Of a stretch of 25,324 nucleotides of DNA, positions 12,136 to 25,324 are shown piece after piece. The notes under the pieces are model-generated. The model ran no database searches, was not told the origin of the DNA, and saw only the letters and a list, made by a program, of their open reading frames with translations. Location of the stretch: assembly GCA_015694865.1 (NCBI GenBank), contig GCA_015694865.1_3933.1; one strand, 5' to 3'. This DNA is from a phage. The translations under genes and the position numbers were made by a program. How positions within the stretch are numbered: position 1 is the first letter of the stretch; every line of letters begins with the position of its first letter.

Positions 12136-12137
12136 AT

Positions 12138-12213
12138 TGGTGGGGGATGTTGGAATTGAACCAACTTCTTCGATTTCAAAGACCGAGGTTTTAACCTTGT
12201 AAACTAATCCCCT
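12138..12213 (-). tRNA. tRNA-Gln (anticodon TTG)
   Basis: 76 nt; T-arm GTTGG-TTCAATT-CCAAC, D-stem GTTT/AAAC, anticodon stem TCGGT/ATCGA with loop CTTTGAA; position 1-72 is an A-C mismatch. Confidence 0.7.
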
Positions 12214-12221
12214 TTAAATCT

Positions 12222-12779: not shown

Positions 12780-13018
12780 CGTCTAATCCTTGTAAGGAGA
12801 TAAATGTTATTATTCGTTTCTAAACCTTCTGGTAAAACTGTCTCAAAAATAACACTCTTTAGCTGTCTACCACCAAAACAATCACGTATAAATCTTTCTA
12901 CTCTAGCGGGGTCACATAAGTACCCTACTTTTAAGAAAATGTGGTGTTCAACACCAATGACCCTGACAAACTCAATATTCTCACAGTTTTCATGTTCAAC
13001 TACTGTTAATGTTTGCAT
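12776..13018 (-). CDS. hypothetical small protein (coupled to 12222..12779)
   Basis: 80 aa ORF; its stop overlaps the start of the downstream ORF (ATGA). Confidence 0.4.
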   Translation of the reverse strand: MQTLTVVEHENCENIEFVRVIGVEHHIFLKVGYLCDPARVERFIRDCFGGRQLKSVIFETVLPEGLETNNNIYLLTRIRR

Positions 13019-13035
13019 AGTATCACCTTTTTATC

Positions 13036-13111
13036 TGGCGCAGGATAAGGGATTCGAACCCCTATTAACAGCTTCGTAGACTGTTGCTCTATCCATTTGA
13101 ACTAATCCTGC
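13036..13111 (-). tRNA. tRNA-Arg (anticodon ACG)
   Basis: 76 nt; acceptor GCAGGAT/ATCCTGC, D-stem GTTC/GAGC, anticodon loop CTACGAA, T-arm AGGGG-TTCGAAT-CCCTT, CCA encoded. Confidence 0.8.
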
Positions 13112-13116
13112 AAAAT

Positions 13117-13194
13117 TGGTGTTCCAAGACGGATTCGAACCGTCACTAATACAAGGTTTGAGCTTACATCCTCTGCCAATTGGGATACTGGAAC
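13117..13194 (-). tRNA. tRNA with Leu-type anticodon CAA but short variable region (atypical; isotype uncertain)
   Basis: 78 nt; acceptor GTTCCAG/TTGGAAC, T-arm GACGG-TTCGAAT-CCGTC, D-loop AATTGGCAGAG shared with the 12057..12135 gene, anticodon loop CTCAAAC. Confidence 0.5.
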
Positions 13195-13195
13195 A

Positions 13196-13269
13196 TGGTA
13201 CTCACTAAAGGACTTGAACCTTTTCTTCATCTTGTAAGGGTGATGTTTTACCATATAAACTAAGCGAGT
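13196..13269 (-). tRNA. tRNA-Val (anticodon TAC)
   Basis: 74 nt; acceptor ACTCGCT/AGTGAGT, D-stem GTTT/AAAC, anticodon loop CTTACAA, T-arm AAAGG-TTCAAGT-CCTTT, CCA encoded; short variable loop. Confidence 0.65.
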
Positions 13270-13364
13270 GTGAAAGAGGTCTGAAGTTGTGCCGCTAACT
13301 CAACTCCGTGGAATTTGTTACGGTCTTCAGTTGACACCAGCGGTCTTTCACTTGACCTCTGAAT

Positions 13365-13441
13365 TGGTGCTGCTCACAGGACTCGAACCCGCATTTCCAT
13401 CCTTACAAGGGATGTGTAATAGCCAATTATACGAAAGCAGC
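13365..13441 (-). tRNA. tRNA-Thr (anticodon TGT)
   Basis: 77 nt; acceptor GCTGCTT/GAGCAGC, anticodon stem CATCC/GGATG with loop CTTGTAA, T-arm GCGGG-TTCGAGT-CCTGT, CCA encoded. Confidence 0.75.
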
Positions 13442-13448
13442 ATTAATT

Positions 13449-13524
13449 TGGAGCATCCAGAGGGAATCGAACCCTCAACCTCAGTTTGGAAGACTGTAAT
13501 TTTCCCGTTTAAACTATGGATGCA
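13449..13524 (-). tRNA. tRNA-Gly (anticodon TCC)
   Basis: 76 nt; acceptor GCATCCA/TGGATGC, anticodon loop CTTCCAA, T-arm GAGGG-TTCGATT-CCCTC, CCA encoded. Confidence 0.7.
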
Positions 13525-13529
13525 CTAAT

Positions 13530-13605
13530 TGGTGGAGAAGCAGGGAATTGAACCCTGTACTTAAGTTTGCAAAACTTATGTTTTAACCATGTAAACTACA
13601 TCCCC
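13530..13605 (-). tRNA. tRNA-Ala (anticodon TGC)
   Basis: 76 nt; G3-U70 wobble pair in the acceptor stem (Ala identity element), anticodon stem TAAGT/ACTTA with loop TTTGCAA, T-arm CAGGG-TTCAATT-CCCTG, CCA encoded. Confidence 0.75.
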
Positions 13606-13611
13606 AATGTA

Positions 13612-13687
13612 TGGTACAGGTGGAGGGAATTGAACCCATCGTCTTACTGATTAAGAGTCAGCCGCATAACCATTTTGCTACACCTGC
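13612..13687 (-). tRNA. tRNA-Lys (anticodon CTT)
   Basis: 76 nt; acceptor GCAGGTG/CACCTGT, anticodon stem GCTGA/TCAGT with loop CTCTTAA, T-loop TTCAATT, CCA encoded. Confidence 0.7.
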
Positions 13688-13694
13688 ATTAATT

Positions 13695-13772
13695 TGGTAG
13701 GAGACAAGGGATTCGAACCCTCAAACACCAACTTCTAAGGATGGTAGGTTTACCAATTACCGTCAATCTCCC
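13695..13772 (-). tRNA. tRNA with Leu-type anticodon TAG but short variable region (atypical; isotype uncertain)
   Basis: 78 nt; acceptor GGGAGAT/GTCTCCT, T-arm GAGGG-TTCGAAT-CCCTT, anticodon loop CTTAGAA on stem CCATC/GTTGG; D-arm poorly paired. Confidence 0.45.
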
Positions 13773-14028
13773 ATTAAATCTTTTTAGAGAACTTCTAAGA
13801 ACCTAAGCAACAAGGTTCCACAACAAGCTGTAATAACCTTAGAAGCCCTCTAAAAAGACCTAAAAAGGTCTTTGCATAGTCTTGTTTAATCCGGTGACTA
13901 GAACCTTTGGAGAGCTTGATATTATCTCTTCTCCGTGACACCTACTAGGTGCTTTACTGTGCTTGTACGACAATACACGAGGGATACCAAAGCAACATCC
14001 GAATGAAGCTTGGCTTTAAACCTTATTA

Positions 14029-14118
14029 GGCGGTAAGTAAAGGAGTCGAACCCTCACCGTATCTCTACAGTGGCAACTGTTTTCAAGACAGTTTGGCTAC
14101 CATTAGCCGCTACCTACC
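14029..14118 (-). tRNA. tRNA-Ser (anticodon TGA), class II
   Basis: About 88 nt; acceptor GGTAGGT/ACTTACC, D-stem GGC/GCC, anticodon stem ACTGT/ACAGT with loop CTTGAAA, long variable arm, T-loop TTCGACT; only CC of CCA encoded. Confidence 0.7.
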
Positions 14119-14131
14119 CCTAATAAGACTT

Positions 14132-14214
14132 TGGCATGGGACGGAGGAGTTGAACCCCTTTGAAACGGTTTTGGAGGCCGTTGCTCATGCCTTAGAGTCT
14201 TAACATCGTCCCAT
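14132..14214 (-). tRNA. tRNA-Trp-like (anticodon CCA) with abnormally long D-region; possibly a tRNA-like ncRNA
   Basis: 83 nt; perfect 7-bp acceptor ATGGGAC/GTCCCAT, T-loop TTCAACT, anticodon arm ACGGC-CTCCAAA-ACCGT, but about 16 nt between the D-stem strands. Confidence 0.5.
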
Positions 14215-14356
14215 ATTATAATTCGAAGCTTACCGTATTATCTCAACACTGTAAAGCCCCTTCTCAGATTATTTACATGTTCTGGAAAACATGAGATACA
14301 GACCACCTCCCTACAGGAAGACCCGCTTAGGTCGTCTAAGTAATCTGCTAACTAAT

Positions 14357-14433
14357 TGGCACACCCTACAGGATTCGAACCTGTAACTAACGATTTAGAA
14401 GACCGTTGCTCTATCCAATTGAACTAAGGGTGC
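14357..14433 (-). tRNA. tRNA-Arg (anticodon TCT)
   Basis: 77 nt; acceptor GCACCCT/AGGGTGT, D-stem GTTC/GAGC, anticodon stem ACGGT/ATCGT with loop CTTCTAA, T-arm ACAGG-TTCGAAT-CCTGT, CCA encoded. Confidence 0.8.
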
Positions 14434-14636
14434 ATTAATCTTTAAAGACTCTCTTAGAAAGCCCTTAAAGATGCCCACCTTATTAATCATACCGTGGGCT
14501 AGTACGCCAAATTCTTTGATGAGGGATTGGAAGACCTCACTGGTGTTTAGCCTATCAAGCTACTGCCAGAAAAACATTGTCGTTTGCATTTATTTTAAAT
14601 TTGCAAAATAGACGCTACGCAACGAAAACTAAGGTT

Positions 14637-14665
14637 ACTATAAAGTAGTCACATCTCAATGTCAA
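14637..14665 (-). promoter_or_regulatory. sigma70-like promoter on minus strand (TTGACA-17 bp-TATAGT)
   Basis: Plus-strand tgtcaa at 14660-14665 and actata at 14637-14642 give, on the minus strand, -35 TTGACA, a 17-nt spacer and -10 TATAGT, pointing at tRNA-Arg(TCT) and downstream tRNAs. Confidence 0.55.
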
Positions 14666-14680
14666 CAACTTTATTGAAAT

Positions 14681-14756
14681 TGGTACTGGTAGGTGGAATC
14701 GAACCACCGATGTTCCCTTATCAGGGGAGTGTTATAACCTTCTTAACTATACCAGC
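14681..14756 (-). tRNA. tRNA-Ile (anticodon GAT)
   Basis: 76 nt; acceptor GCTGGTA/TACCAGT, D-stem GTTA/TAAC, anticodon loop CTGATAA, T-arm GGTGG-TTCGATT-CCACC, CCA encoded. Confidence 0.75.
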
Positions 14757-14757
14757 T

Positions 14758-14834
14758 TGGAGGTTCAGATGGGATTCGAACCCATCGCCTGTCAGATTAA
14801 AAGTCTGCCGCATCACCATTCTGCTACACTTCCA
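14758..14834 (-). tRNA. tRNA-Lys-like (anticodon TTT) with poorly paired acceptor stem (possible pseudo-tRNA)
   Basis: Paralogous in sequence to the 13612..13687 tRNA-Lys; good T-arm ATGGG-TTCGAAT-CCCAT and anticodon arm GCAGA-CTTTTAA-TCTGA, but acceptor strands GGAAGTG vs CTGAACC pair at only 3 of 7 positions. Confidence 0.45.
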
Positions 14835-14837
14835 TTA

Positions 14838-14981
14838 AATTATCTTTGTAGATAAGCTACCCAGACTTGCTTAATGTCTGTAGCGATGTGCCTTTTTGGG
14901 TTTAAATCTAGAATTTACCCTTTCACCCTTTGTGGTCGCATACTCACAGGTAAGCTTAATAACTTATCTACAAAGATAATT
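14838..14981. repeat. 19-bp perfect inverted repeat (14838-14856 / 14963-14981) flanking a 106-bp non-coding segment
   Basis: aattatctttgtagataag at 14838-14856 is the exact reverse complement of cttatctacaaagataatt at 14963-14981. Confidence 0.7.
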
Positions 14982-15030
14982 ACCAGACCGTTGTTTATCA
15001 TCTTAAGTGCTACCATTACACCAACTCGAC

Positions 15031-15080
15031 ATCTGCCGAGTGAAGGAATCGAACCTTCGCCTTTTCTTTACCGGAGAAAT
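15031..15080 (-). ncRNA. tRNA-like fragment (T-arm plus 3' acceptor strand without a pairing 5' strand)
   Basis: Reverse complement gives TTTCT-CCGGTAA-AGAAA, then GAAGG-TTCGATT-CCTTC-ACTCGGC; no complementary 5' acceptor strand or recognisable D-arm within about 80 nt upstream. Confidence 0.35.
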
Positions 15081-15120
15081 AGATTGTTTAAGTTTTGCTG
15101 AATACGGTCTTCTGCAAAAT

Positions 15121-15197
15121 TGGAGGCGGGTGCAGGAGTCGAACCTACCGATACCATGCTAATGAGACATGTGAGACGCCCTTTCTCTATACCCGCA
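15121..15197 (-). tRNA. tRNA-Met (anticodon CAT; elongator, initiator or Ile2 not distinguishable)
   Basis: 77 nt; T-arm GTAGG-TTCGACT-CCTGC, anticodon stem CATGT/GCATG with loop CTCATTA, acceptor ACCCGCC with a 1-72 T-C mismatch in the best register, CCA encoded. Confidence 0.6.
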
Positions 15198-15287
15198 ATT
15201 CTCAATGACCAGACCAAATATCTTCTTTGTCCGATTTCGTGTCAGATGAGTAGATTAAGTTTGCTGTAATTGGTCTTCTGTCAAAAC

Positions 15288-15365
15288 TGGCGTTCCAGAA
15301 GGGATTTGAACCCTCAGATATCCACTTTGAAAGAGTGGTGACTTTACCATTTTGTCTACTGGAAC
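15288..15365 (-). tRNA. tRNA-Glu (anticodon TTC)
   Basis: 78 nt; acceptor GTTCCAG/CTGGAAC, anticodon stem CCACT/AGTGG with loop CTTTCAA, T-arm GAGGG-TTCAAAT-CCCTT, CCA encoded. Confidence 0.7.
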
Positions 15366-15375
15366 ATTAATTTGT

Positions 15376-15449
15376 TCTCTGTTGGAGGACTTGAACCTCC
15401 GGCCTTACCGCCCCAAACGGAACGCTCTACCAAGCTGAGCTAAACAGAG
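15376..15449 (-). tRNA. tRNA-Pro (anticodon TGG)
   Basis: 74 nt without CCA; C1-G72 pair, D-arm TAGCTCAGCTTGGTAGAGC, anticodon loop TTTGGGG with G37, T-arm GGAGG-TTCAAGT-CCTCC. Confidence 0.75.
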
Positions 15450-15567
15450 ATAAACTTTTCAAACTCTATGTAACCACTTTAACATTATTTTTTAGTGGTT
15501 GTCAAGAACTTTTTTAAAATATTTTTCAGTATCTTAGAAAAGCTCTCATTTCGTTTCTATGTAGAAC

Positions 15568-17482: not shown

Positions 17483-17657
17483 TGGTATGCCTCTTATAAG
17501 ACCTCTTAAAAGGCTTTTAAGATAAAAGATAGATATCCAGAAAGATATCTGTTTAAATAGCCTTTTTAGAGGAACCTTTTAAGTTATCTTCTAAGTATTT
17601 AGAAGCCTACACCTTGTCAAGTACTTTGTCAACAACTTTTTTAACTTGCAATAGTTC

Positions 17658-17686
17658 TTGACTTGTTGTATGGATTACTGTACCAT
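17658..17686 (+). promoter_or_regulatory. candidate sigma70-like promoter for the rightward gene block (TTGACT-17 bp-TACCAT)
   Basis: TTGACT at 17658-17663, 17-nt spacer, TACCAT at 17681-17686, about 45 nt upstream of the first plus-strand ATG; weak -10. Confidence 0.3.
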
Positions 17687-17731
17687 CTTACTTAAAGCTG
17701 TAGGTCTGCCTTGTTATACAAAGGAGACTTA

Positions 17732-17893
17732 ATGAGAAAATCAAATAAACCGAAGAAAGGTAAGAATACCAATCACTGTAAGGAATCAAAAAGGGTAGAG
17801 TTAATCTACTATTCATCCTCTGAAATTGGTCTGTACCTGTTCTTTCAAAATTACAGAAGACAAGAGGATTATCTATGTGTAGTTCCCAATTAG
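17732..17893 (+). CDS. small lysine-rich hypothetical protein
   Basis: ORF 17711..17893 trimmed to the ATG at 17732, which has an AAGGAG RBS 5 nt upstream. Confidence 0.45.
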   Translation: MRKSNKPKKGKNTNHCKESKRVELIYYSSSEIGLYLFFQNYRRQEDYLCVVPN

Positions 17894-18108
17894 AAATCGC
17901 AGATATTATAGATTTATATCAAACTGCAAAGAGTCATGGCTATATAACCTCAATTGGAAAGAATAGTCACTATGATGCTTTGACTGGAATGTATTTCAGG
18001 GCAATGGCTCAATCTAGTGAACAACACTTAATGGTTTCTTCCAGTGAGTTTACTTCGTTTCTCTATTGCAGCAAAATTATAAACCGCAGGAGAACTGAAA
18101 AATGTTAA
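17875..18108 (+). CDS. hypothetical protein
   Basis: 77 aa ORF with AAGAGG RBS upstream; overlaps the previous ORF by 19 nt. Confidence 0.45.
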   Translation: MCSSQLEIADIIDLYQTAKSHGYITSIGKNSHYDALTGMYFRAMAQSSEQHLMVSSSEFTSFLYCSKIINRRRTEKC

Positions 18109-18692
18109 CAGTAAGTTTTAATTACAATAGTGATGGCTCTGTATCAATTAATTCACCATATGCAAATGACCTGCTTAAAGAGCTAGTTAATCAGTGTGAT
18201 AGAGGTCTTCACTATGTTCAAAATTCTTTTAAACAGAAGACTATTGCTAATAACTTGATGCGTGTAACAGTAACGGCATCGAATCAAAATTATGACTTTG
18301 ATAGTGAAAGTCCGTACTCATTAGTTGCGCTTGGAGAGAGCAGCCAATTCAAACTTGTTTGCCACGACTCAGAAACATTCCTTAAGGTATTTTCAAACCT
18401 TATCCATAATAATAAGTACAGCTACGTTGATGGTAGTGTAAACTTCTATCCAGCAAATTATACATGTTTGTTGGTTGATAACATGAGAAAGAGTAAGCAA
18501 GAGCCTACAGAAATTTCATTTGATGTGAACTCTAGTCCAGACGCAGAAACAAGTAAGAACTTTGATATGAGTTACGCATTGTCGCTCAGTAAGAAATCCG
18601 AGTTCATTGATTATGTCAATGGATTTGATTTTAAGTTTGATGAGAGTATGAATCTTAAAAAACTTAAAAACCTACTTAAGACCAAAGCTTAA
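18102..18692 (+). CDS. hypothetical protein
   Basis: 196 aa ORF; GGAG RBS; start overlaps the previous stop. Confidence 0.55.
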   Translation: MLTVSFNYNSDGSVSINSPYANDLLKELVNQCDRGLHYVQNSFKQKTIANNLMRVTVTASNQNYDFDSESPYSLVALGESSQFKLVCHDSETFLKVFSNLIHNNKYSYVDGSVNFYPANYTCLLVDNMRKSKQEPTEISFDVNSSPDAETSKNFDMSYALSLSKKSEFIDYVNGFDFKFDESMNLKKLKNLLKTKA

Positions 18693-18739
18693 GTGTGAAT
18701 AGGGGCATCAGTCCCTTTAACTATTTATAAGGATATTTA

Positions 18740-19111
18740 ATGAAAGCTAAGAGTGCAAAAGACTTTTATTGCTTACTACAATCCTATATCAATTCCGTGC
18801 AAAATGGTGAAAGGTACAACCTTAATGATGTTATCCCAACACCTTTGACATGGAGACTCAGTAAATGGCCTGAAGAAGATATTACACCAACAAGCAAACA
18901 ACACACCTACAAACCTGAAATCAATATTCCAGACTCTGAGAACCTATTATATCCAATGTTCCATATTGTTGGTCTTGGGAGATTCCTTATGGATATTCAG
19001 TATGTAATTGGTAAAGGTTATAAGGTTAAAGGCATTGTTGTTGGTGATGTATCTCCACACCACAAAGGTTATTTTAGACTAAACGCACATTTAGAGGCTA
19101 AAAAGAAATGA
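18740..19111 (+). CDS. hypothetical protein, paralog of the N-terminal region of 19108..19740
   Basis: 123 aa; AAGGA RBS; shares motifs with the next ORF (W.EEDI / WPEADI, YKP, DSE..LY / SDELLY, MDIQY / MDLQY). Confidence 0.55.
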   Translation: MKAKSAKDFYCLLQSYINSVQNGERYNLNDVIPTPLTWRLSKWPEEDITPTSKQHTYKPEINIPDSENLLYPMFHIVGLGRFLMDIQYVIGKGYKVKGIVVGDVSPHHKGYFRLNAHLEAKKK

Positions 19112-19740
19112 TTAAAGCAAAGACTTACCCAGACTTTAAAGAGTTTGTGAAGGGCTTCATTGCAAACGTAAAGGTTGGTAAGAGATATGATTTTAGAACA
19201 TATCAAGAGGCTATTTTACCACTTACCTATAGTTCATATTGGCCTGAAGCTGATATTGCAGAAGTTGAGAAGTTTGACTACAAACCAGACTACAAAGTTC
19301 CATTTAGTGATGAATTGCTTTACAGTGTTGGTGCACAGATGAGAACTGCTGATTTCTTCATGGATTTGCAGTATGCAATCATCAATGGTAAAGATGTTGA
19401 CACAATTTACTGTGAATGGTTGGCAAGAGTTAAGCCGTTCTCAATGTTGAATGCTAAGTTGAAAGATGTCATCACACCACCAACAATCACTCAGCAACCA
19501 ACCAATCAAACAGTAAATGAAGGGGGTACACTTACCCTAAGCGTTATTGCAACTAATGCCACTGGTTATCAATGGAAAAAGGATGGTGAGGACATCCCTA
19601 GTGCCAATTCTGCAACTTACACCAAAGAAGGTGCAACCGCTGCTGATGCAGGAAGCTACACCTGTGTAGTTACTGGTGCAGGTGGCTCTGTAACATCTAA
19701 TGCAGCAACAGTTACTGTTAACCCAGCAGGGGAGGCATAA
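19108..19740 (+). CDS. hypothetical protein with C-terminal Ig-like domain
   Basis: 210 aa; ATGA overlap with the previous gene; C-terminus ...TLTLSVIATNATGYQWKKDGEDIPSANSATYTKEGATAADAGSYTCVVTGAGGSVTSNAATVTV... has the Y-x-C pattern of Ig-like domains. Confidence 0.6.
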   Translation: MIKAKTYPDFKEFVKGFIANVKVGKRYDFRTYQEAILPLTYSSYWPEADIAEVEKFDYKPDYKVPFSDELLYSVGAQMRTADFFMDLQYAIINGKDVDTIYCEWLARVKPFSMLNAKLKDVITPPTITQQPTNQTVNEGGTLTLSVIATNATGYQWKKDGEDIPSANSATYTKEGATAADAGSYTCVVTGAGGSVTSNAATVTVNPAGEA

Positions 19741-20204
19741 TGCAACTCTCAAGAAAAGGTTTAGAAGCTATTAAGTTCTTTGAAGGTCTTAAGCTTGAGG
19801 CTTACGAAGATTCTGCTGGAATCCCCACAATTGGGTATGGGACAATTCGTATTGGTGGGAAGCCTGTTAAGATGGGTATGAAGATTACCGCTGAACAAGC
19901 TGAACAGTATCTTCTTGCAGATGTTGAAAAGTTCGTTGCAGCAGTGAACAAAGCCATCAAGGTTCCAACTTCTCAGAATGAGTTTGATGCACTTGTAAGT
20001 GAAACATACAACATTGGTATCACAGCTATGCAGGACTCTACATTTATCAAGCGCCACAATGCTGGTAATAAGGTCGGTTGTGCAGAAGCTATGCAGTGGT
20101 GGAACAAGGTTACAGTAAAAGGTAAGAAGGTCACTTCAAACGGCCTGAAAAACAGACGTAGAATGGAAGCTGACATTTATCTTGACAGTGTATATCCAAA
20201 GTAA
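19740..20204 (+). CDS. endolysin, GH24 (T4 lysozyme-like) family
   Basis: 154 aa; N-terminal FEGLKLEAYEDSAGIPTIGYG carries the Glu…Asp…Thr catalytic arrangement; GGGGAGG RBS; terminator immediately downstream. Confidence 0.85.
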   Translation: MQLSRKGLEAIKFFEGLKLEAYEDSAGIPTIGYGTIRIGGKPVKMGMKITAEQAEQYLLADVEKFVAAVNKAIKVPTSQNEFDALVSETYNIGITAMQDSTFIKRHNAGNKVGCAEAMQWWNKVTVKGKKVTSNGLKNRRRMEADIYLDSVYPK

Positions 20205-20213
20205 TATCTTCAT

Positions 20214-20240
20214 AGGCTCCTTCGGGAGCCTTTTTTATTT
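20214..20240 (+). terminator. rho-independent terminator after the endolysin gene
   Basis: AGGCTCC-ttcg-GGAGCCT hairpin followed by TTTTTTATTTT. Confidence 0.8.
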
Positions 20241-20255
20241 TCTAAGGAGAAAACT

Positions 20256-20654
20256 ATGAAACTTTGGGCTAGTGACTTTGGAACTTTTAAGTACACTCGT
20301 AATGGCTCGCTTGTACGCATTGTCGGAAACAATGTGGTTTCAAGAGGTGACAAGGTGTATACACGGTTTACTGTAGAGCTTGTTGAGCTGTCGCCTATTG
20401 AGTCTGTGAACAATGGTCTGTTCAAGTTTGAGACTTACAATGTCAATGAGCATGGACAATTTAACCCTCTTGGCGAAAGTGGACTTGATATTATTTCAGA
20501 ACACCCGTTGACAAAAGAGCAACTTGCAGGTTACTATAAAACTGTTCTGGAAAGGCAGTTAGCAACACATGAACAAGAAGCTAACTACCACCTACATCAT
20601 TGCGAAACTTTAAGAGCAAAAATCGAACAAGCAGAGAGAGGTTTTTATGAATAA
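20256..20654 (+). CDS. hypothetical protein
   Basis: 132 aa ORF; AAGGAG RBS. Confidence 0.55.
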   Translation: MKLWASDFGTFKYTRNGSLVRIVGNNVVSRGDKVYTRFTVELVELSPIESVNNGLFKFETYNVNEHGQFNPLGESGLDIISEHPLTKEQLAGYYKTVLERQLATHEQEANYHLHHCETLRAKIEQAERGFYE

Positions 20655-21045
20655 AGATGTTAGAGATATCCAAGTAAAAGTTGACACGTTTGGCCATGAT
20701 GGTCGAGAAGATATAGGTTTTGCCGATGCAGTAATATACAAGTGCAACGGAGATTTATTCCTTCAGTTTACAGGGTCTGGAAGCACACTTCATCGAGTAC
20801 GAGATGATGAAGATGGTTGTCCTGTATTTGGTTGGTTTGACAGGGAGTTCCCTCTTTACGCAATCCACTACCCAGATGGTGGTGAAGATTGGACAACCCA
20901 ATCAATCTTTGATGAGCTTAATGGTGTTCCAGTTGAGCAAGAAGAGCGAGAGCCTGTTGAACTTACCTTCACCTTTATCAAAGAAGAGAAAGTAGGTGAC
21001 TTGTCAGTAACTGAAGCAATTCAAGTTTCACAGGTGATTCGTTAA
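20647..21045 (+). CDS. hypothetical protein
   Basis: 132 aa ORF; overlaps the previous stop; GAGAGG RBS. Confidence 0.55.
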   Translation: MNKDVRDIQVKVDTFGHDGREDIGFADAVIYKCNGDLFLQFTGSGSTLHRVRDDEDGCPVFGWFDREFPLYAIHYPDGGEDWTTQSIFDELNGVPVEQEEREPVELTFTFIKEEKVGDLSVTEAIQVSQVIR

Positions 21046-21338
21046 TGAGTAAAGTACAGGTTATTTTCCCTATTTGTGACTTCTCACTAGAGCGTGAACT
21101 TGACCTGTACGAAGAAATTACTGACGAAATCATCTGGTCTGTTGTAGAAGAGGCTATCAAGAAACTGTATGGTGGCCTCTTAAATCCATCAAGTAAAAAG
21201 CTCACTACTAAGCAAGTAGCTGATACGTACACTTCATATGATGCCTACAACAAACCTTTTGAAAATACCTGCTTTGACCTTATGGTAGGTAATAACAAAG
21301 TCAACTATTTCTTCGTCAGAGAGTTTAACGATGAGTAA
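21045..21338 (+). CDS. hypothetical protein
   Basis: 97 aa ORF; TAATG stop/start overlap. Confidence 0.5.
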   Translation: MSKVQVIFPICDFSLERELDLYEEITDEIIWSVVEEAIKKLYGGLLNPSSKKLTTKQVADTYTSYDAYNKPFENTCFDLMVGNNKVNYFFVREFNDE

Positions 21339-21675
21339 GCTCCATGTCACAGTGTACAAAAACTTCTCAGATATCAAAGAGTCTTTAACAAATAAGCTTG
21401 ACTTACAACGTAAAAGACTCTTCTTAATGTACGATATAGACAACTACAACCATCCTAAAGAGTTTAACTACAAAGATGGTACAAAGGTTGTTGAGTTTGA
21501 AGATTCTGTGACGGTATATGTCAAGCATGACTTACCAGCAAAGTACATAGGGATGTTAGAGTACTATATATTCAAACACACAGGTATGCGTGGTGAATCT
21601 GTCAAGATATCTTCTATAGAAGTTTTTGAGAAACCTAACACACAACTTAAAAAGTATTTAATGAGGAAACTGTAA
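21331..21675 (+). CDS. hypothetical protein
   Basis: 114 aa ORF; overlaps the previous gene end. Confidence 0.5.
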   Translation: MSKLHVTVYKNFSDIKESLTNKLDLQRKRLFLMYDIDNYNHPKEFNYKDGTKVVEFEDSVTVYVKHDLPAKYIGMLEYYIFKHTGMRGESVKISSIEVFEKPNTQLKKYLMRKL

Positions 21676-22256
21676 TGTCCGAAGAGCAACAGAATATTAC
21701 TCCACAAGTAACACTGGTACAACATTTTGGAAATATTGAAGGGTGTATTGCACTTTTTCAACCAAGCATCAACTCTCCTGCAAAAGTTTGTAAGTTGACT
21801 ATGAATGTGAACAATATCAGTGTTTGCCTTGTTGATGAAGTCCAGTACTTCAAATTCAATGACAGAGAGGTTGATGCTGCACTATTGAAGTATCGAGCAA
21901 GCCTCGAAAAAGACATCGACCACAAAGAACTTGTAACACTGTTTGGTGACCTTCACAAGCTTCTTGAAAAGGTTATGAAGCGCACATACTACATGAACAA
22001 CGGTTCAATCATCACCACTTTGATTTCACCATGTATTTCAGAGCCAATTTTAACTGATGACGGTGGATACTACGTGGTAGCATCAGCAGATTCTGATTGG
22101 TGGATGAAGAACACAGCACTTAAAACAGTGATTGAGGCTATCCGCGAACATATCCCTTCATTCAGCCCGTGGAAAGGTAAAAGTGATGATTTCATTGCAC
22201 TATTGAGTGAAGAGAGTAACAAGCGCAGTGCATTGCTGCCTAAAAAATACTCTTGA
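21675..22256 (+). CDS. hypothetical protein
   Basis: 193 aa ORF; GAGGA RBS; start overlaps the previous stop. Confidence 0.55.
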   Translation: MSEEQQNITPQVTLVQHFGNIEGCIALFQPSINSPAKVCKLTMNVNNISVCLVDEVQYFKFNDREVDAALLKYRASLEKDIDHKELVTLFGDLHKLLEKVMKRTYYMNNGSIITTLISPCISEPILTDDGGYYVVASADSDWWMKNTALKTVIEAIREHIPSFSPWKGKSDDFIALLSEESNKRSALLPKKYS

Positions 22257-22281
22257 CCGAGTATACAACACTGATTATGAT

Positions 22282-22312
22282 GGGAGCTATCGAGAGGTAG
22301 TTCCCTTTTTAG
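22282..22312 (+). terminator. candidate rho-independent terminator
   Basis: GGGAGCTA-tcgagagg-TAGTTCCC stem (one G-U pair) followed by TTTTT. Confidence 0.5.
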
Positions 22313-22339
22313 TTTCTAGATAAGAGACATGGTAAAAGA

Positions 22340-22558
22340 ATGAAAAAACTAACTACAGTTGAAGACTACTACAAACTGTCCCTGTTAGAGCAGTATCGTA
22401 GGAGCCAGAATATCAGAAAATGCTATGGTAAACACGCTGAAGGTGACTTTTACCGTTGCTACGATGCAGATTTAAAAGGTGTAACACCTAGAGGGAAAGT
22501 CCTGCAAAGGCTTGTTGACCTTGAGTGGAACAAACGATTGAGAGGGTTTGGGAAATGA
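22340..22558 (+). CDS. hypothetical small protein
   Basis: 72 aa ORF; weak RBS; stop overlaps the next start. Confidence 0.45.
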   Translation: MKKLTTVEDYYKLSLLEQYRRSQNIRKCYGKHAEGDFYRCYDADLKGVTPRGKVLQRLVDLEWNKRLRGFGK

Positions 22559-23058
22559 TTTACGAAGAAAGATACAAAATAGATTACCAGAAGACTGGTC
22601 ATCATACTTCTCTTAGAGTAACCAAACCAAATGGGGATACCGGTATCATAGCACACTTTGGTGGTGACTATTGGTACGGTACAGGTTGCTTTGAAGGCTA
22701 CACTCAAGAATACTTGAAAGCTTTCTACAGAGACTTTACAAATGACTACAACAGGGTTGTTGAAGAGAAGAATAAGTGCATTAAGCATGAATATCATGCC
22801 AGAGGTTGTCTAAATATTGTTATGATACTAGTGTTCTTCTTAGCAACATTACTAGCTGTATCAGCAATCAGCTACATAGCTCAAGACTTGACCATTACAC
22901 AGATTACTGCAAAGTTGCATGATGTCTGGTACTTGTATGTTGTTCCTTTAGCTGGTATCATCATCTCACTAATGAGGTTCAGAGTTCATAAGAAACGACT
23001 TAAGAATTCTGAGGTTAAACTTGAAGAGGTAAGTAAAGAATGCAACCTACAATTATAG
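22555..23058 (+). CDS. hypothetical membrane protein (two predicted transmembrane helices)
   Basis: ORF 22525..23058 trimmed to the ATG at 22555 (GAGGG RBS, ATGA overlap with the previous gene); hydrophobic segments LNIVMILVFFLATLLAVSAISYI and WYLYVVPLAGIIISLM. Confidence 0.5.
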   Translation: MIYEERYKIDYQKTGHHTSLRVTKPNGDTGIIAHFGGDYWYGTGCFEGYTQEYLKAFYRDFTNDYNRVVEEKNKCIKHEYHARGCLNIVMILVFFLATLLAVSAISYIAQDLTITQITAKLHDVWYLYVVPLAGIIISLMRFRVHKKRLKNSEVKLEEVSKECNLQL

Positions 23059-23134
23059 CTGTATGTGTTCGTTTTGCAATCGCTGAAATGATTAACAAGG
23101 CAATCTTAAAAGATGCCTATGGAGAGACTAAGTA

Positions 23135-23359
23135 ATGATTAAGACACCTGTACCAATCTTTGGATTTCCTTCTATAGAAGAGTTCAAAGTTTATCTTGAC
23201 AAAAACTTCTACAACGAGCAGCCTGTTACTTTGCTGAAGAGTGACTTATCAGAGCTTCTTGATATGGTTATTAAGGCAACTTCTGAGAAGGAGCCTGAAC
23301 AGAAAGCTGAGAAGAAGACTAGTAAGAAATCTGATAAGAAGACTGAAAAGTCTGAGTAA
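23135..23359 (+). CDS. hypothetical small protein with lysine-rich C-terminus
   Basis: 74 aa ORF; GGAGAG RBS; C-terminal KAEKKTSKKSDKKTEKSE. Confidence 0.45.
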   Translation: MIKTPVPIFGFPSIEEFKVYLDKNFYNEQPVTLLKSDLSELLDMVIKATSEKEPEQKAEKKTSKKSDKKTEKSE

Positions 23360-23412
23360 TAGCTTAAGGGGTTACTTGATAGCCCCTTTGTAGAAACTTA
23401 GAAGGTAGCGAA

Positions 23413-23841
23413 ATGAAAGAACTTATAGGTAAAGAGCTTGACGTTGTAGATGCAAAGACACAGAGGTATATAGCTACTGTTAAGTTTCTTGGAATGAATG
23501 ATGCAAGTGATGATTACCCTCTCAACTGCATAGTTTTAGATAAGTTTAAGGTTTGTGGTATTAATTTTAATGAGGATAACTTTATAAGCTTTGATAAGGA
23601 CGGTTTCTGGCGTGGTAAGAACCACCCTCAAGCAAATGAGTTTGATATGCGTCTAGTGATACCACAAAAAGGTAAATCACAAAATGTAAAAGATATCCTT
23701 GTAGAAGCCTATGCAGAAGGTATAATAGCTGTTGTGCATGATGTTGAAAAAGCTTTAAAGCTTGTTATGCCACATTTAGAATCTGGAAAGCTGACTTTAG
23801 AGATGCTTAATAGGGTTATTCGGAGAGCTTATGAAAATTAA
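23413..23841 (+). CDS. hypothetical protein
   Basis: 142 aa ORF; GAAGG RBS. Confidence 0.55.
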   Translation: MKELIGKELDVVDAKTQRYIATVKFLGMNDASDDYPLNCIVLDKFKVCGINFNEDNFISFDKDGFWRGKNHPQANEFDMRLVIPQKGKSQNVKDILVEAYAEGIIAVVHDVEKALKLVMPHLESGKLTLEMLNRVIRRAYEN

Positions 23842-24295
23842 AGAAGTAGTGCAAAGAGCAATGCTTGACAACTCAACTAAAGATGAGATGTACAAAGAGA
23901 TTTGTGATAAGTTGAATTGCTCAAGACATGCTGCTAAGGTTCTTGTACATTGTTTTATCTGGGAATGCTCAGAAGTTTATATGAAACACGTAGCTTTTGA
24001 GAGTTCTCATTTACTCGGTGATGCAAAAATAGGTGTAGCACTAAAAGAGCCTGAGATGAAAACAGTACCTAAAGTTGGTAATGTGTATAAACTAAAAAAT
24101 TTTATTACAGGCGAGATTGTTGCAGAAGGTGAAGTGCAACAGGTTTATCATGATGGTAAATATCTGTTTAAGATATTCGAGTATGATAGTCGTTACAGAC
24201 ACTTATGTGGTATTACATTTTTAGTTTCAGAGGATGACCTCATCAAGAACAATAGTAATAAATTCGCAGTACCAGAATATCAAGTTTTACGATAA
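23831..24295 (+). CDS. hypothetical protein
   Basis: 154 aa ORF; GGAGAG RBS; overlaps the previous gene end. Confidence 0.55.
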   Translation: MKIKEVVQRAMLDNSTKDEMYKEICDKLNCSRHAAKVLVHCFIWECSEVYMKHVAFESSHLLGDAKIGVALKEPEMKTVPKVGNVYKLKNFITGEIVAEGEVQQVYHDGKYLFKIFEYDSRYRHLCGITFLVSEDDLIKNNSNKFAVPEYQVLR

Positions 24296-24308
24296 TGGTG
24301 TGATAGAT

Positions 24309-24857
24309 ATGGAAAAAGATAACTTAAAAGAAGTTGAAGGTAACTACTTAGTACTTGACTGGAAGGATGTTCGGGAAGCACTCTCCGAAGAAAATCTTGA
24401 CTGGTTCGAACAAATTATCTTTGCAGTACGGCATAACCGAGAAGTTGAAAATGGTAAAGAGCCACTTGAAGGAATCTTTGTAGAAAGGTCTTATCCATTC
24501 TATGAAGACACTTTGCAGAAAGTTAAGATGTACTTTAAACAGAAGAACCGTAAAGTGGTCACTATGGTATCTCTTGGTGGACAGAGTATGTCTGTGATGG
24601 AAGATATCAACCCTAAGAGACCAAGTAAGGGTGTCTGTATAAAAATCACAGGTCATGAAGAGTATATCTCAGCAAGTGATTTTAGTGCATTCTGTAATGG
24701 CTCTTGTGTCTTTAATGGTTTTCACTATGATATCCGAGTTTACCCAATCAAGGGTGATGATATCATGATGCAGATATTCGATAACAACAATGGATTTACT
24801 CATTTTTATCAGACAACCAAGTCATCATTGAAAACAGTTCTGGAAACACTGATTTAA
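24309..24857 (+). CDS. hypothetical protein
   Basis: ORF 24234..24857 trimmed to the in-frame ATG at 24309, just after the previous stop; terminator follows. Confidence 0.5.
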   Translation: MEKDNLKEVEGNYLVLDWKDVREALSEENLDWFEQIIFAVRHNREVENGKEPLEGIFVERSYPFYEDTLQKVKMYFKQKNRKVVTMVSLGGQSMSVMEDINPKRPSKGVCIKITGHEEYISASDFSAFCNGSCVFNGFHYDIRVYPIKGDDIMMQIFDNNNGFTHFYQTTKSSLKTVLETLI

Positions 24858-24867
24858 AATATCTTAA

Positions 24868-24900
24868 GAGCCTCCTTAATTGGGGGCTTTTTAATTTTTT
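24868..24900 (+). terminator. rho-independent terminator ending the rightward gene block
   Basis: AGCCTCC-ttaattg-GGGGGCT hairpin followed by TTTTTAATTTTTT. Confidence 0.65.
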
Positions 24901-24940
24901 ATAAAATTTTATCGGTTGTCCCAACCTCTGGGTCACCATC

Positions 24941-25324
24941 ATATGTGAATAAAGTATCTATCCTTCTTAACAACCTTCTTAATCTTACTCTCTATATAGT
25001 TATATAGTACTATATAGTATCTTAGTAACTATCTAGTGGTCTTAATAGCCCTCTGTATAGCCCTTCTAAATAGCCATCTAAACACTCTTCTAACAAGCCT
25101 TCTTAACAACCTATACAATCACCTTAACCATCCCTCTACACCCTCTTAGAAGCTCCTATACACCTCTTAATCTCTATGTCAGCTATGTTACCCTCTATAG
25201 GTGTTCACTAGGTATTACTAAGCCTCTATATAGACTGTTTTAACAAACTTAACAGGAATATCTTTACAGACCTTATCTCACAAGGTCTAACACGGTACTA
25301 ACAAGGTATCTTATAAGCCTGTTA
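24941..25324. repeat. non-coding, pyrimidine-skewed, repeat-rich region
   Basis: No ORF of 60 aa or more on either strand; plus strand almost devoid of G; three copies of TATATAGT at 24993-25018; repeated CCTTCTTAACAACC and CTTCTAA/CTCTTAGAAGC-type motifs. Confidence 0.6.

What the first reader, a model, noticed from the sequence alone, without database searches (positions are those of the whole stretch)
24900..25324. Strand-skewed, repeat-rich non-coding tail of the window
The last 420 bp have almost no G on the plus strand, carry three tandem TATATAGT units and several copies of CCTTCTTAACAACC and CTTCTAA-type motifs, and encode no ORF. Directly after a terminator, this looks like a replication origin, a packaging site, a genome terminus or a regulatory array rather than neutral spacer.
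Basis: seen in the sequence. Interest (0 to 1): 0.55.

Follow-up and report, generated by a model that had tools for sequence, protein, structure and literature searches.

The report
Repeat array beside phage terminal repeat
The window's G-poor, repeat-rich tail is the conserved non-coding DNA just inside the terminal repeat of a Felix O1-like phage chromosome, and it most likely helps cut and package the genome, much like the short-repeat arrays next to phage T7's terminal repeat.

Summary
In 24900-25324, G is 10.6% (GC skew -0.40), the lowest of any 425-nt stretch in the window. The repeats exceed composition-matched shuffles (0/1000). There is no ORF over 48 aa, and an intrinsic terminator lies just upstream.

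The window is a Felix O1-like myovirus (Felixounavirus). In complete relatives the tail is the first ~467 nt of a ~1.65-kb gene-free gap between convergent gene blocks. That gap holds the 570-614-bp direct terminal repeat (DTR), known from PhageTerm and Bal31/run-off data. The DTR's inner boundary lies 134 nt beyond the window end, so the tail is subterminal unique DNA and not the terminus.

Across three genera the gap is more conserved (74-93% nt identity) than the flanking genes. It carries TCTTAACA/TAACAAG motifs on one strand, phased at ~11-12 bp. A fourth genus (Erwinia phages) keeps the motif, phasing and skew without alignable sequence. T7's SRL array has the same signature (G 10.8%, skew -0.44, 13-nt period).

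Best reading: a cis-acting protein-binding array of the concatemer-junction/packaging region (confidence ~0.5). Rivals are a replication origin and a Rho/rut-type insulator. It is a new member of a known kind, of moderate interest.

The parts
24866..24901 (+). Intrinsic terminator of the last + strand gene (stop codon ends at 24857): a 10-bp stem-loop at 24866-24891 followed by a T run.
   Evidence: 2 terminator-like sites found; shuffles give 0.2. The same structure is annotated as a terminator in wV8 and Moogle. GGGGCTTTTTA (24883-24893) is invariant in 22 sequences.
24902..25324 (+). Window part of the 'left' subterminal non-coding region: G-poor, C-rich on the + strand, with a ~12-nt periodic degenerate repeat array. 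In relatives it continues 133 nt further to the inner DTR boundary TATCTGCTT|GGTAGCCC.
   Evidence: composition, periodicity, shuffles. (distance to the DTR). (mean conservation 0.895; 54% of columns invariant in 22 sequences from three genera).
24931..24948 (.). Invariant blocks GGTCACCAT and ATATGTGA; role unknown.
24962..24983 (+). First TCTTAAC-type motif pair (CCTTCTTAACAACC followed by TTCTTAAT), spaced 12 nt apart.
   Evidence: The core TCTTAACA is the motif enriched in the whole gap and in the Erwinia phage gap.
24989..25017 (.). 29-nt block TCTCTATATAGTTATATAGTACTATATAG, invariant across the aligned genera and 79% A+T. It contains the three TATATAGT units and two CTATATAG palindromes.
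25010..25038 (+). Composite site A: CTATATAG-N3-CTTAGTAA-N4-CTAGTG.
   Evidence: the only forward copy in the window. (arm of an inverted repeat; + strand fold z = -3.2). Conserved in Felixouna-, Susp- and Mooglevirus.
25040..25111 (+). Variable-copy 12/24-nt tandem array (CCCTTCTAAATAG / CCATCTAAACACT / CTTCTAACAAG / CCTTCTTAACAACC). This is the least conserved stretch, with indels between strains.
   Evidence: periods 12 and 24. (indels, low conservation at 25038-25100).
25145..25176 (+). Invariant blocks CTTAGAAGC (25145-25153) and TCTTAATCTCTA (25165-25176). CTTAGAAG is the unit repeated with an 11-nt period in the right flank of the Erwinia phage gap.
25206..25233 (-). Composite site B, the inverted copy of site A. 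On the - strand it reads CTATATAG-N3-CTTAGTAA-N3-CTAGTG.
   Evidence: It lies within the invariant block 25216-25239.
25239..25256 (+). Two TAACA motifs 9 nt apart (TTTTAACAAACTTAACAGG).
   Evidence: ACTTAACAGG is conserved.
25280..25323 (+). Near-invariant 44-nt block ACAAGGTCTAACACGGTACTAACAAGGTATCTTATAAGCCTGTT, carrying TCTAACAC and CTAACAAG motifs 11 nt apart.

Best explanation
**What it is.** The tail is the gene-proximal part of the non-coding 'terminal region' of a Felix O1-like (Ounavirinae) phage chromosome. In replicating concatemers this ~1.65-kb region lies between two convergent transcription units. It is laid out as left flank (~600 nt, of which the window holds the first 467), then the direct terminal repeat (570-614 bp), then the right flank (~470 nt).

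**How it most likely works.** Terminase cuts at two fixed sites, TATCTGCTT|GGTAGCCC and TGTTAAGGGGGC|TAGC, and the DNA between them ends up at both ends of every virion chromosome. The window's tail lies just outside the inner cut. It is built from short motifs on one strand (TCTTAACA / CTAACAAG, CTNTATAG, CTTAGAAG), phased roughly one helical turn apart, plus an inverted pair of a 28-29-bp composite site. I infer that it is a cis-acting array of protein-binding sites that continues, in the same orientation, into the repeat. Its likely role is to organise the concatemer junction for recognition, cutting, repeat duplication or packaging initiation. That would be the role long proposed for the SRL/SRR short-repeat arrays flanking the T7 terminal repeat and for the repeated boxes of pac/cos sites.

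**Shown:** identity, location relative to the repeat, conservation, motif content, phasing, absence of coding or known RNA.

**Inferred:** that proteins bind, which protein binds, and that the process served is packaging or end processing.
For: 1. **Identity.** 255-258 phage records match the tail, all Felixouna-, Susp- or Mooglevirus plus one apparently chimeric record.
2. **Position.** Four DTR-resolved genomes were checked: Pr103Blw 581 bp (annotated), D4 581 bp, CRP22 579 bp and Ro111lw 613 bp. All four carry exact end duplications. In the three aligned to the window's end (Pr103Blw, D4, CRP22) the inner edge falls 134-135 nt past it. The two boundary motifs are invariant or nearly so in the 11 genomes from three genera that were examined. 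The lengths match published values: 581 bp (PMC8303462) and 613 bp (PMC6454146). For UAB_Phi87 I predict 614 bp, against 608 bp measured by Bal31 and run-off sequencing (PMC4837284).
3. **Selection.** The gap is 74-93% identical to the distant genera in 60-nt bins. The flanking coding DNA is mostly 41-60%, and the neighbouring protein is only 49-57% identical. In 22 unique sequences, 54% of tail columns are invariant, including blocks of 24, 25 and 29 nt.
4. **Array character.** In the gap TAACA[AG] occurs 25 times on the + strand and 5 times on the - strand, against a background of 0.8 per kb. CTAACAAG occurs 10 times against 0.12 expected. Self-similarity peaks at lag 12 in the tail (z = 6.1), lag 11 in the DTR (z = 11.2) and lag 10-11 in the right flank (z = 4.2). 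The tail shares its motif vocabulary with the DTR on the same strand.
5. **Deep conservation of architecture without alignable sequence.** Erwinia phage Fifi106 (Kolesnikvirus) has the syntenic 1487-nt gap. It carries TCTTAACA 11 times on one strand (0.11 expected), a lag-11 peak of z = 9.3 and a left-flank skew of -0.33. A related isolate contig has an exact 444-nt terminal duplication ending at the homologues of the boundary motifs.
6. **Measured resemblance to T7.** T7 nt 161-400, next to its 160-bp terminal repeat, has G 10.8%, skew -0.44 and a 13-nt period with z = 10.1, made of CCTAAAG units on one strand. The tail has G 10.6%, skew -0.40 and a 12-nt period with z = 6.1.
7. **Nothing else fits.** There is no ORF, no 3-nt periodicity, no Rfam family and no excess of sigma-70-like promoters.
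Against: - No binding protein is identified. The window has a T4-type large terminase (8816-10432) but no recognisable small terminase. The 66-aa ORF next to it is strongly acidic.
- No experiment links this DNA to packaging.
- The tail is outside the repeat and 134 nt or more from the nearest cut, so it may serve another process.
- The skew is mirror-symmetric: C-rich on the transcribed-sense strand downstream of both convergent operons. That also fits a transcription-related role.
- The invariant AT-rich block next to iteron-like repeats also fits an origin.
- The function of the T7 arrays used as the analogy is itself not established (my knowledge of Dunn & Studier 1983 and later T7 packaging work; not retrievable from the paper library).
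Confidence: 0.5

Rival explanations
1. Replication origin, or part of one. The phased TCTTAACA/TAACAAG repeats would act as iterons for an initiator. The invariant 79% A+T block with three TATATAGT units (24989-25017) would act as the DNA-unwinding element.
For: The tail combines an iteron-like one-strand array with an invariant AT-rich triple repeat. It has strong sequence conservation without coding. It sits in the largest gene-free region of the genome, where transcription does not collide with initiation. No origin has been described for this phage group in the papers read.
Against: No initiator gene lies next to the region; the helicase/primase and polymerase genes are tens of kb away in Fifi106. 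The repeat unit of 7-8 bp at an 11-bp spacing is shorter and denser than classical iterons. The densest, best-phased arrays lie inside the terminal repeat and stop at the terminase cut sites. The cumulative GC-skew turn at the gap is confounded by the switch in gene orientation.
Confidence: 0.2
2. Transcriptional insulator. The C-rich, G-poor tract would be a Rho-utilisation (rut)-like back-up terminator. It would stop read-through from the convergent operons from crossing the terminal repeat or concatemer junction and running antisense into the opposite operon.
For: The C:G ratio is 3.6 over 24950-25200 (69 C, 19 G), with a ~12-nt periodicity. The skew is mirror-symmetric: the sense strand downstream of each convergent operon is C-rich (left flank -0.23 to -0.50; right flank +0.2 to +0.51 on the + strand). 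The Erwinia phage shows the same pattern. In the + strand MFE fold most of 25069-25144 is unpaired.
Against: A strong intrinsic terminator already precedes the tail. A rut site needs composition, not invariant 24-29-nt blocks or an inverted composite site. The palindromic CTATATAG motifs and the 11-bp phased arrays inside the repeat are not explained. The region is about 5 times longer than a typical rut site (my knowledge).
Confidence: 0.12
3. The tail encodes a small RNA, or a structured single-stranded DNA or RNA element. The ~30-nt inverted repeat 25010-25038 / 25206-25233 would form a long-range stem.
For: The + strand folds better than shuffles (z = -3.2; 0 of 100 shuffles fold as well). 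Both arms lie in conserved blocks.
Against: There is no promoter-like site upstream and no terminator downstream, and no Rfam match. The N3 spacers inside the arms do not pair in any genus: TAT or CCT opposite CCT. No compensatory changes are available because the arms are invariant. The strand is otherwise G-poor and weakly structured.
Confidence: 0.06
4. Ordinary spacer or decayed coding sequence, whose repeats are slippage products without function.
For: The 25040-25111 tandem array varies in copy number between strains. Some GenBank records annotate tiny ORFs in the gap.
Against: Conservation is higher than in the flanking genes across three genera. The architecture is retained in a fourth genus without alignable sequence. 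There is no 3-nt periodicity and no conserved ORF.
Confidence: 0.03

Closest known systems
Short-repeat arrays SRL/SRR flanking the 160-bp terminal repeat of phage T7 (Dunn & Studier 1983; recalled from my own knowledge, sequence re-analysed here)
   Same: Both are non-coding DNA immediately next to a short exact direct terminal repeat. Both carry a 7-8-bp motif repeated on one strand every 12-13 nt. Composition is nearly identical: T7 161-400 has G 10.8% and skew -0.44, and the tail has G 10.6% and skew -0.40. In both, copies of the motif also occur inside the repeat, and the orientation is the same across the concatemer junction.
   Different: The motif is unrelated (CCTAAAG vs TCTTAACA / CTAACAAG / CTNTATAG) and there is no sequence homology. 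The host virus is a myovirus with a T4-type large terminase and no phage RNA polymerase. In Felix O1-like phages the densest arrays lie inside a much longer repeat (570-614 bp vs 160 bp). The flank also holds an inverted composite site and an invariant AT-rich block, which T7 lacks. The region sits between convergent operons, whereas in T7 it lies upstream of the early promoters.
Direct terminal repeat of Felixounavirus genomes (UAB_Phi87 608 bp, PMC4837284; Ro111lw 613 bp, PMC6454146; Pr103Blw 581 bp, PMC8303462)
   Same: It is the same gene-free locus. The tail is contiguous with the repeat and shares its motifs and strand orientation.
   Different: The tail is not part of the duplicated segment, which starts 134 nt beyond the window. 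The papers read report only repeat lengths. They do not describe the arrays, the boundary motifs or the cross-genus conservation.
pac/cos recognition regions made of repeated protein-binding boxes (P1 pac hexamer repeats, SPP1 pacL/pacR, lambda cosB R sites; from my own knowledge)
   Same: Both are clusters of short repeated boxes flanking terminase cleavage sites. Phasing close to the helical repeat suggests DNA wrapped on an oligomeric recognition protein.
   Different: The arrays here span about 1.2 kb, far longer than known pac/cos sites. No small terminase or other binder is identified. There are two fixed cuts ~590 bp apart (DTR type), not one cut followed by headful packaging or a cohesive end.
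Iteron-plus-DUE replication origins (lambda ori, plasmid oriV; from my own knowledge)
   Same: Both have a one-strand array of short repeats next to an AT-rich block.
   Different: The repeat unit and spacing are much shorter. There is no adjacent initiator gene. The arrays are bounded by terminase cut sites.

Membership tests
Felixounavirus / Ounavirinae direct terminal repeat (the physical genome terminus) | The sequence is present at both ends of the virion chromosome (an exact terminal duplication). | tested here: not met
   In Pr103Blw, D4 and CRP22 the duplicated 579-581 bp starts 134-135 nt beyond the position homologous to window 25324. In Ro111lw the 613-bp duplication starts at the same conserved inner boundary motif. 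The tail maps to unique DNA.
Felixounavirus / Ounavirinae direct terminal repeat (the physical genome terminus) | The conserved boundary (cleavage) motifs TATCTGCTT|GGTAGCCC and TGTTAAGGGGGC|TAGC are present. | tested here: not met
   Neither motif is in the window. Both are found in 11 relatives downstream of the tail homologue.
Ounavirinae terminal non-coding region (gap between convergent operons that contains the DTR) | Synteny: follows the last gene of the + strand block and its terminator, with no ORFs, and is homologous to the gap of complete genomes. | tested here: met
   The tail corresponds to the first 467 of ~1658 nt of the gap.
T7-type subterminal short-repeat array (SRL/SRR-like) | Lies directly beside a short exact terminal repeat. 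| tested here: met
   By homology the tail ends 134 nt from the DTR edge, and the array continues up to and into the DTR.
T7-type subterminal short-repeat array (SRL/SRR-like) | A short motif is repeated on one strand with a regular 12-13-nt spacing, with strong C>G skew on that strand. | tested here: met
   Tail: lag 12 z = 6.1, G 10.6%, skew -0.40. T7 161-400: lag 13 z = 10.1, G 10.8%, skew -0.44.
T7-type subterminal short-repeat array (SRL/SRR-like) | Sequence relatedness to the T7 CCTAAAG arrays, or to the T7-like virus lineage. | tested here: not met
   The motifs differ. The virus is an Ounavirinae myovirus with a T4-type TerL. The resemblance is analogy, not homology.
T7-type subterminal short-repeat array (SRL/SRR-like) | A role in concatemer processing or packaging. 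| not testable with these tools
   This needs deletion or plasmid-transduction experiments.
Replication origin (iterons + DNA-unwinding element) | Repeated initiator-binding sites next to an AT-rich unwinding element. | tested here: inconclusive
   Arrays and a 79% A+T invariant block are present. However, the unit and spacing are atypical and no initiator is known.
Replication origin (iterons + DNA-unwinding element) | An initiator or replication gene is adjacent, or an origin has been mapped experimentally. | tested here: not met
   The flanking genes are small proteins of unknown function. Replication genes lie far away in Fifi106. No origin mapping was found in the papers read.
Rho-dependent terminator (rut site) | A C-rich, G-poor, weakly structured RNA tract of about 80 nt or more downstream of a transcription unit. 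| tested here: inconclusive
   The composition criterion is met. The fold leaves most of 25069-25144 unpaired, but the whole tract folds better than shuffles. An intrinsic terminator already precedes it.
Protein-coding gene | A conserved ORF with 3-nt periodicity. | tested here: not met
Known RNA family (Rfam 15) | A match at or near the gathering score. | tested here: not met
   The only two sub-threshold hits lie on the terminator (26 and 22.6 bits, against gathering scores of 55 and 47).

The most novel reading that the evidence does not exclude
The tail, the terminal repeat and the opposite flank together form one ~1.5-1.7-kb nucleoprotein 'terminal organiser', conserved across the subfamily Ounavirinae. 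A still unidentified protein, phage-encoded or an enterobacterial host factor, would polymerise head-to-tail on TCTTAACA sites spaced one helical turn apart. The inverted 28-29-bp composite sites in the tail would anchor a DNA loop. The assembly would position the two terminase cuts ~590 bp apart, and might also serve as the replication start. This would be a new DNA-recognition system for exact-end packaging in a myovirus that has a T4-type terminase and no recognisable small terminase.
Probability: 0.25. Interest if true: 0.6.

Novelty: new member of a known kind. Interest (0 to 1): 0.35.

Why it matters
Felix O1-like phages are widely used for Salmonella and E. coli typing, biocontrol and therapy, and Bas63 is becoming a model for the group. 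Even so, how they define their chromosome ends is known only as a repeat length.

This analysis places the repeat, gives conserved cut-site motifs, and shows that about 1.6 kb of non-coding DNA around it is under stronger constraint than the adjacent genes. The window's tail is part of that DNA.

- **Annotation.** The tiny ORFs called inside the gap should be dropped, and genomes can be opened at the true ends.
- **Engineering.** The flank should not be treated as a neutral insertion site.
- **Packaging research.** It gives a defined DNA target for finding the recognition protein of a terminase system that lacks an obvious small subunit.

It is not a new kind of element. Repeat arrays beside terminal repeats have been known since the T7 sequence.

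Tried and rejected
- **Missed coding frame.** ORF lists on both strands found nothing over 48 aa, and there is no 3-nt periodicity.
- **Known RNA.** An Rfam scan at permissive E-values gave only sub-threshold hits on the terminator.
- **Promoter array.** TTAACA resembles a -35 hexamer and TATAGT a -10 hexamer. The sigma-70 scan nevertheless found only 2 sites in 24700-25324, against 2.6 expected. In the whole gap it found 11 against 6.3 +/- 2.5.
- **IHF sites.** None lie in the gap; the 3 matches are all in flanking genes.
- **Finding the source contig.** I searched IMG/VR for the last 34 nt to read beyond the window. Nine relatives matched, but none was identical (best 97-99%), so the extension rests on homologues.
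- **Erwinia relatives by DNA similarity.** No hits at E <= 0.01. I guessed one accession wrongly and fetched an unrelated N4-like phage. An early look at the start of the Fifi106 record showed only coding sequence. The syntenic gap was then found from the annotation.
- **Small terminase candidate.** The 66-aa ORF upstream of TerL has no Pfam hit, and its PHROG family has no known function. It has only close homologues and is strongly acidic, so I dropped it as a DNA binder and did not run a structure prediction.
- **Literature.** T7 SRL/SRR function and Felix O1 transcriptomics were not retrievable from the library. The Felix O1, wV8 and comparative Felixounavirus papers do not discuss the gap. 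The PhageMaP paper targeted Bas63 genes only.
- **Motif outside Ounavirinae.** A collection scan for TCTTAACA-N3-TCTTAACA gave mostly single chance hits. Dense arrays occurred only in Ounavirinae contigs, plus two unrelated contigs with perfect 11-nt tandem repeats that I did not pursue.
Full report
**1.

Region 24900-25324 contains 129 A, 105 C, 45 G and 146 T. G is 10.6% and GC skew is -0.40. In the core 24950-25200, G is 7.6% and skew is -0.57. No other 425-nt stretch of the window has so little G (minimum 0.101, at 24891; median 0.19). The genes just upstream have the opposite skew (+0.17 to +0.29), so the skew is local and not a genome-wide property.

TATATAGT occurs at 24993, 25001 and 25011 and nowhere else in 25 kb. 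CCTTCTTAACAACC occurs at 24962 and 25098 only. CTTCTAA is at 25063 and 25087. 'Almost no G' and 'several copies' are mild overstatements.

Against 1000 dinucleotide-preserving shuffles of the tail, no shuffle reached the observed value for any of these measures:

| Measure | Observed | Shuffles |
|---|---|---|
| Repeated 7-mers | 48 | 18.3 +/- 5.2 |
| Repeated 8-mers | 24 | 5.7 |
| TAACA | 7 | 1.0 |
| CTNTATAG | 5 | 0.18 |
| TATATAGT | 3 | 0.09 |

Self-similarity peaks at a lag of 12 nt (z = 6.1), with no 3-nt coding signal. Tandem Repeats Finder reports periods of 10/18, 12/24 and 11. The longest ORFs touching the tail are 48 aa (mostly antisense to the last gene) and 37 aa with a GTG start. 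An intrinsic terminator (stem-loop 24866-24891 plus a T run) follows the last gene, whose stop codon ends at 24857.

**2. What the window is**

The last kilobase is 95-97% identical to many Felixounavirus genomes, the Felix O1-like myoviruses of Escherichia and Salmonella. The tail alone matches 255 records, from Felixounavirus, Suspvirus and Mooglevirus.

The window carries a T4-type large terminase (8816-10432, - strand), a portal gene (7333-8808), 22 tRNA genes (10862-15450), and a + strand block that includes an endolysin (17711-24857).

In complete relatives the tail is the start of a gene-free gap of about 1.62-1.74 kb between two convergent gene blocks. In fjerdesal this is L001 4559-6216, where window 24300-25324 corresponds to L001 4001-5024. 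The same layout holds in wV8, Felix O1, SP116, UAB_Phi87, SUSP2, Moogle and ESh20. The Felix O1 paper describes this point as the convergence of transcription units 1-23 and 40-24, but does not comment on the gap.

**3. Where the genome ends are**

Several records are opened inside this gap.

- Pr103Blw annotates a 581-bp 'short direct terminal repeat' at both ends. Its paper reports a 581-bp PhageTerm DTR (PMC8303462).
- D4 (581 bp), CRP22 (579 bp) and Ro111lw (613 bp) also carry exact end duplications. The Ro111lw length matches PMC6454146.
- In window orientation the repeat starts at ...ATATCTGCTT|GGTAGCCCTTAACA... and ends at ...ATGTTAAGGGGGC|TAGCATTTACG... in every case.
- These two boundary motifs are invariant or nearly so in the 11 genomes examined. 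They enclose 569-614 bp.
- For UAB_Phi87 they enclose 614 bp. Bal31 digestion and run-off sequencing measured 608 bp (PMC4837284).

The window ends 134 nt before the inner boundary. The tail is therefore unique subterminal DNA lying between the last gene and the terminal repeat. It is neither the terminus nor part of the repeat.

**4. Anatomy of the whole gap**

In fjerdesal the three parts are as follows.

| Part | Length | GC skew |
|---|---|---|
| Left flank | 599 nt | -0.23 overall; down to -0.50 in the part that lies in the window |
| DTR | 591 nt | -0.15 |
| Right flank | 468 nt | +0.20 |

The gap is filled with short motifs on the + strand.

- TAACA[AG] occurs 25 times on the + strand and 5 times on the - strand. 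Background is 0.8 per kb per strand.
- CTAACAAG occurs 10 times against 0.12 expected. CTTAACAG occurs 7 times.
- CTNTATAG occurs 8 times against a background of 0.04 per kb. CTTTTAAG occurs 7 times.
- Three of the few reverse copies are the tandem TTGTTAAGAAA units that abut the outer cut site.

Spacing inside the repeat is sharply 11 nt (z = 11.2, with harmonics at 21-22 and 31-32). It is 10-11 nt in the right flank (z = 4.2) and 12 nt in the window's tail. The left flank shares its motif vocabulary with the repeat on the same strand.

**5. Conservation**

In 60-nt bins, the gap is 74-93% identical between fjerdesal and the distant genera (SUSP2, Moogle, ESh20). The flanking coding DNA is mostly 41-60%. 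The neighbouring 182-aa protein is only 49-57% identical.

In an alignment of 22 unique sequences, mean conservation of 24902-25324 is 0.895 and 54% of columns are invariant. The invariant blocks include:

- TACTAAGCCTCTATATAGACTGTT (25216-25239);
- ACAAGGTCTAACACGGTA (25280-25297) and TAACAAGGTATCTTATAAGCCTGTT (25299-25323).

The only poorly conserved stretch is the 12/24-nt tandem array at 25040-25111, which varies by indels.

The tail also holds an inverted pair of a composite site. CTATATAG-N3-CTTAGTAA-N4-CTAGTG lies at 25010-25038 on the + strand. Its inverted copy lies at 25206-25233 on the - strand. These are the only two copies in the window, and they are conserved in all three genera. 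This pair explains why the + strand folds better than shuffles (z = -3.2). The internal spacers do not pair in any genus, which favours protein sites over a nucleic-acid stem.

**6. A fourth genus keeps the architecture without the sequence**

blastn finds no Erwinia phage with the tail. Even so, Erwinia phage Fifi106 (Kolesnikvirus) has the same synteny and a 1487-nt gap. In that gap:

- TCTTAACA occurs 11 times on one strand (0.11 expected) and never on the other;
- the lag-11 peak is z = 9.3;
- the left flank is C-rich (skew -0.33) and begins with TCTTAAC units about 12 nt apart;
- the right flank carries CTTAGAAG units with an 11-nt period.

An isolate contig 96-98% identical to Fifi106 has an exact 444-nt terminal duplication. 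Its ends fall within 2-3 nt of the homologues of the Felix-group boundary motifs. The motif, phasing, skew and position are therefore conserved across the subfamily, which argues for a conserved DNA-binding partner.

**7. How it most likely works**

The tail is shown to be a non-coding, strongly constrained, helically phased, one-strand motif array. It is contiguous and co-oriented with the arrays inside the terminal repeat, and it is bounded on the far side by fixed cleavage sites.

I infer that it is part of the cis-acting nucleoprotein region that organises the concatemer junction for end recognition, cutting, repeat duplication or packaging initiation.

The closest worked example is T7. 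I re-analysed NC_001604. The 240 nt next to its 160-bp repeat have G 10.8% and skew -0.44, with CCTAAAG units every 13 nt (z = 10.1) on one strand. That is almost the same signature as the tail. It is an analogy, not homology: the motifs and viruses are unrelated, and the function of the T7 arrays is itself only proposed (my knowledge).

No binder was found. The window has no recognisable small terminase, and the 66-aa ORF beside TerL is acidic.

**8. Rivals**

- **Replication origin (0.2).** Iteron-like arrays plus the invariant AT-rich block fit an origin. Against it, there is no adjacent initiator, the unit and spacing are atypical, and the best arrays stop at the terminase cuts.
- **Rho/rut-like insulator (0.12).** The C:G ratio is 3.6 and the skew is mirror-symmetric on the sense strand of both convergent operons. 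A rut site, however, does not need invariant 24-29-nt blocks, and an intrinsic terminator already precedes the tail.
- **Small RNA or structured strand (0.06).** There is no promoter, terminator or Rfam support, and the arm spacers do not pair.
- **Functionless spacer (0.03).** The conservation data contradict this.

**9. Novelty and score**

The terminal repeat of Felixounaviruses is already known as a length. Repeat arrays beside terminal repeats are a known kind of feature.

What I did not find described in the papers read is the position of the repeat within a subfamily-wide conserved gap, its boundary motifs, the TCTTAACA phasing, and the tail's composite inverted site.

I file the tail as a new member of a known kind, with interest 0.35.

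Noticed in passing
L001 5149-5165 and 5737-5754 (beyond the window; homologous positions about 134 nt and 724 nt past window 25324): The two DTR boundaries carry motifs that are invariant or nearly so in the 11 genomes examined from Felixouna-, Susp- and Mooglevirus: TATCTGCTT|GGTAGCCC and TGTTAAGGGGGC|TAGC. Both have TAGC just after the cut. The outer cut is preceded by three tandem TTGTTAAGAAA units, which are inverted copies of the array motif. They look like the terminase cleavage signals.
   Followed up: partly
L033 20006-21492 (Erwinia phage Fifi106, OR284297); L046/L113 (IMG/VR 2974644367_000001): Kolesnikvirus has the syntenic gene-free gap with TCTTAACA 11 times on one strand, an 11-nt period (z = 9.3) and the same skew pattern, although no sequence is alignable with the window tail. 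A closely related isolate contig has an exact 444-nt terminal duplication at the homologous boundaries.
   Followed up: yes
L123 (IMGVR_UViG_3300042863_002604, 81 kb; rc coordinates ~1420-1540) and L076 (IMGVR_UViG_3300035698_023479; rc ~4190-4275): Two contigs with no similarity to Ounavirinae carry perfect 11-nt tandem arrays of the same core: GTTCTTAACAA 10 times and TTCTTAACAT[CT]T 8 times. This may be coincidence, or a more widespread binding motif.
   Followed up: no
window 17483-17710: The divergent intergenic region between the - strand and + strand gene blocks also shows 12-nt self-similarity (z = 5.7) and three 12-nt tandem pairs (CCTCTTAAAAGA, AGAAAGATATCC, TTGTCAACAACT). It is probably the promoter/operator region of the two divergent units.
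   Followed up: no
window 10862-15450, - strand: A cluster of 22 tRNA genes lies between the terminase gene and a 417-aa protein that matches a PHROG family annotated as RNA-binding. This is typical of Felix O1-like phages.
   Followed up: partly
window 8816-10639, - strand: The large terminase is T4-type (Terminase_6N/6C), although the phage makes exact short terminal repeats. No small terminase is recognisable. The 66-aa ORF immediately upstream (10439-10639) is conserved but strongly acidic and of unknown function.
   Followed up: partly
GenBank GU169904.1 ('Staphylococcus phage SA1', 147 kb), around 137082-137627: This record holds a Felix O1-like copy of the window's last gene (90% aa identity) and of the tail. 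It is probably a chimeric or contaminated assembly.
   Followed up: no
Homologues of window 24858-25324 and the rest of the gap in JN225449 (Phi87_32-34), PP886228 (CDS0001, CDS0149), ON528730 and others: Several GenBank records annotate 25-50-aa 'hypothetical proteins' inside the gap. No ORF is conserved across genomes and there is no coding periodicity, so these calls look spurious.
   Followed up: partly
L001 5749-6216 (right flank of the DTR, beyond the window): The right flank uses a different motif family (CTTTTAAG, CTTTATAG; CTTAGAAG in the Erwinia phage) with a 10-11-nt period. Near the opposite operon it becomes C-rich on the - strand, mirroring the window's tail.
   Followed up: partly
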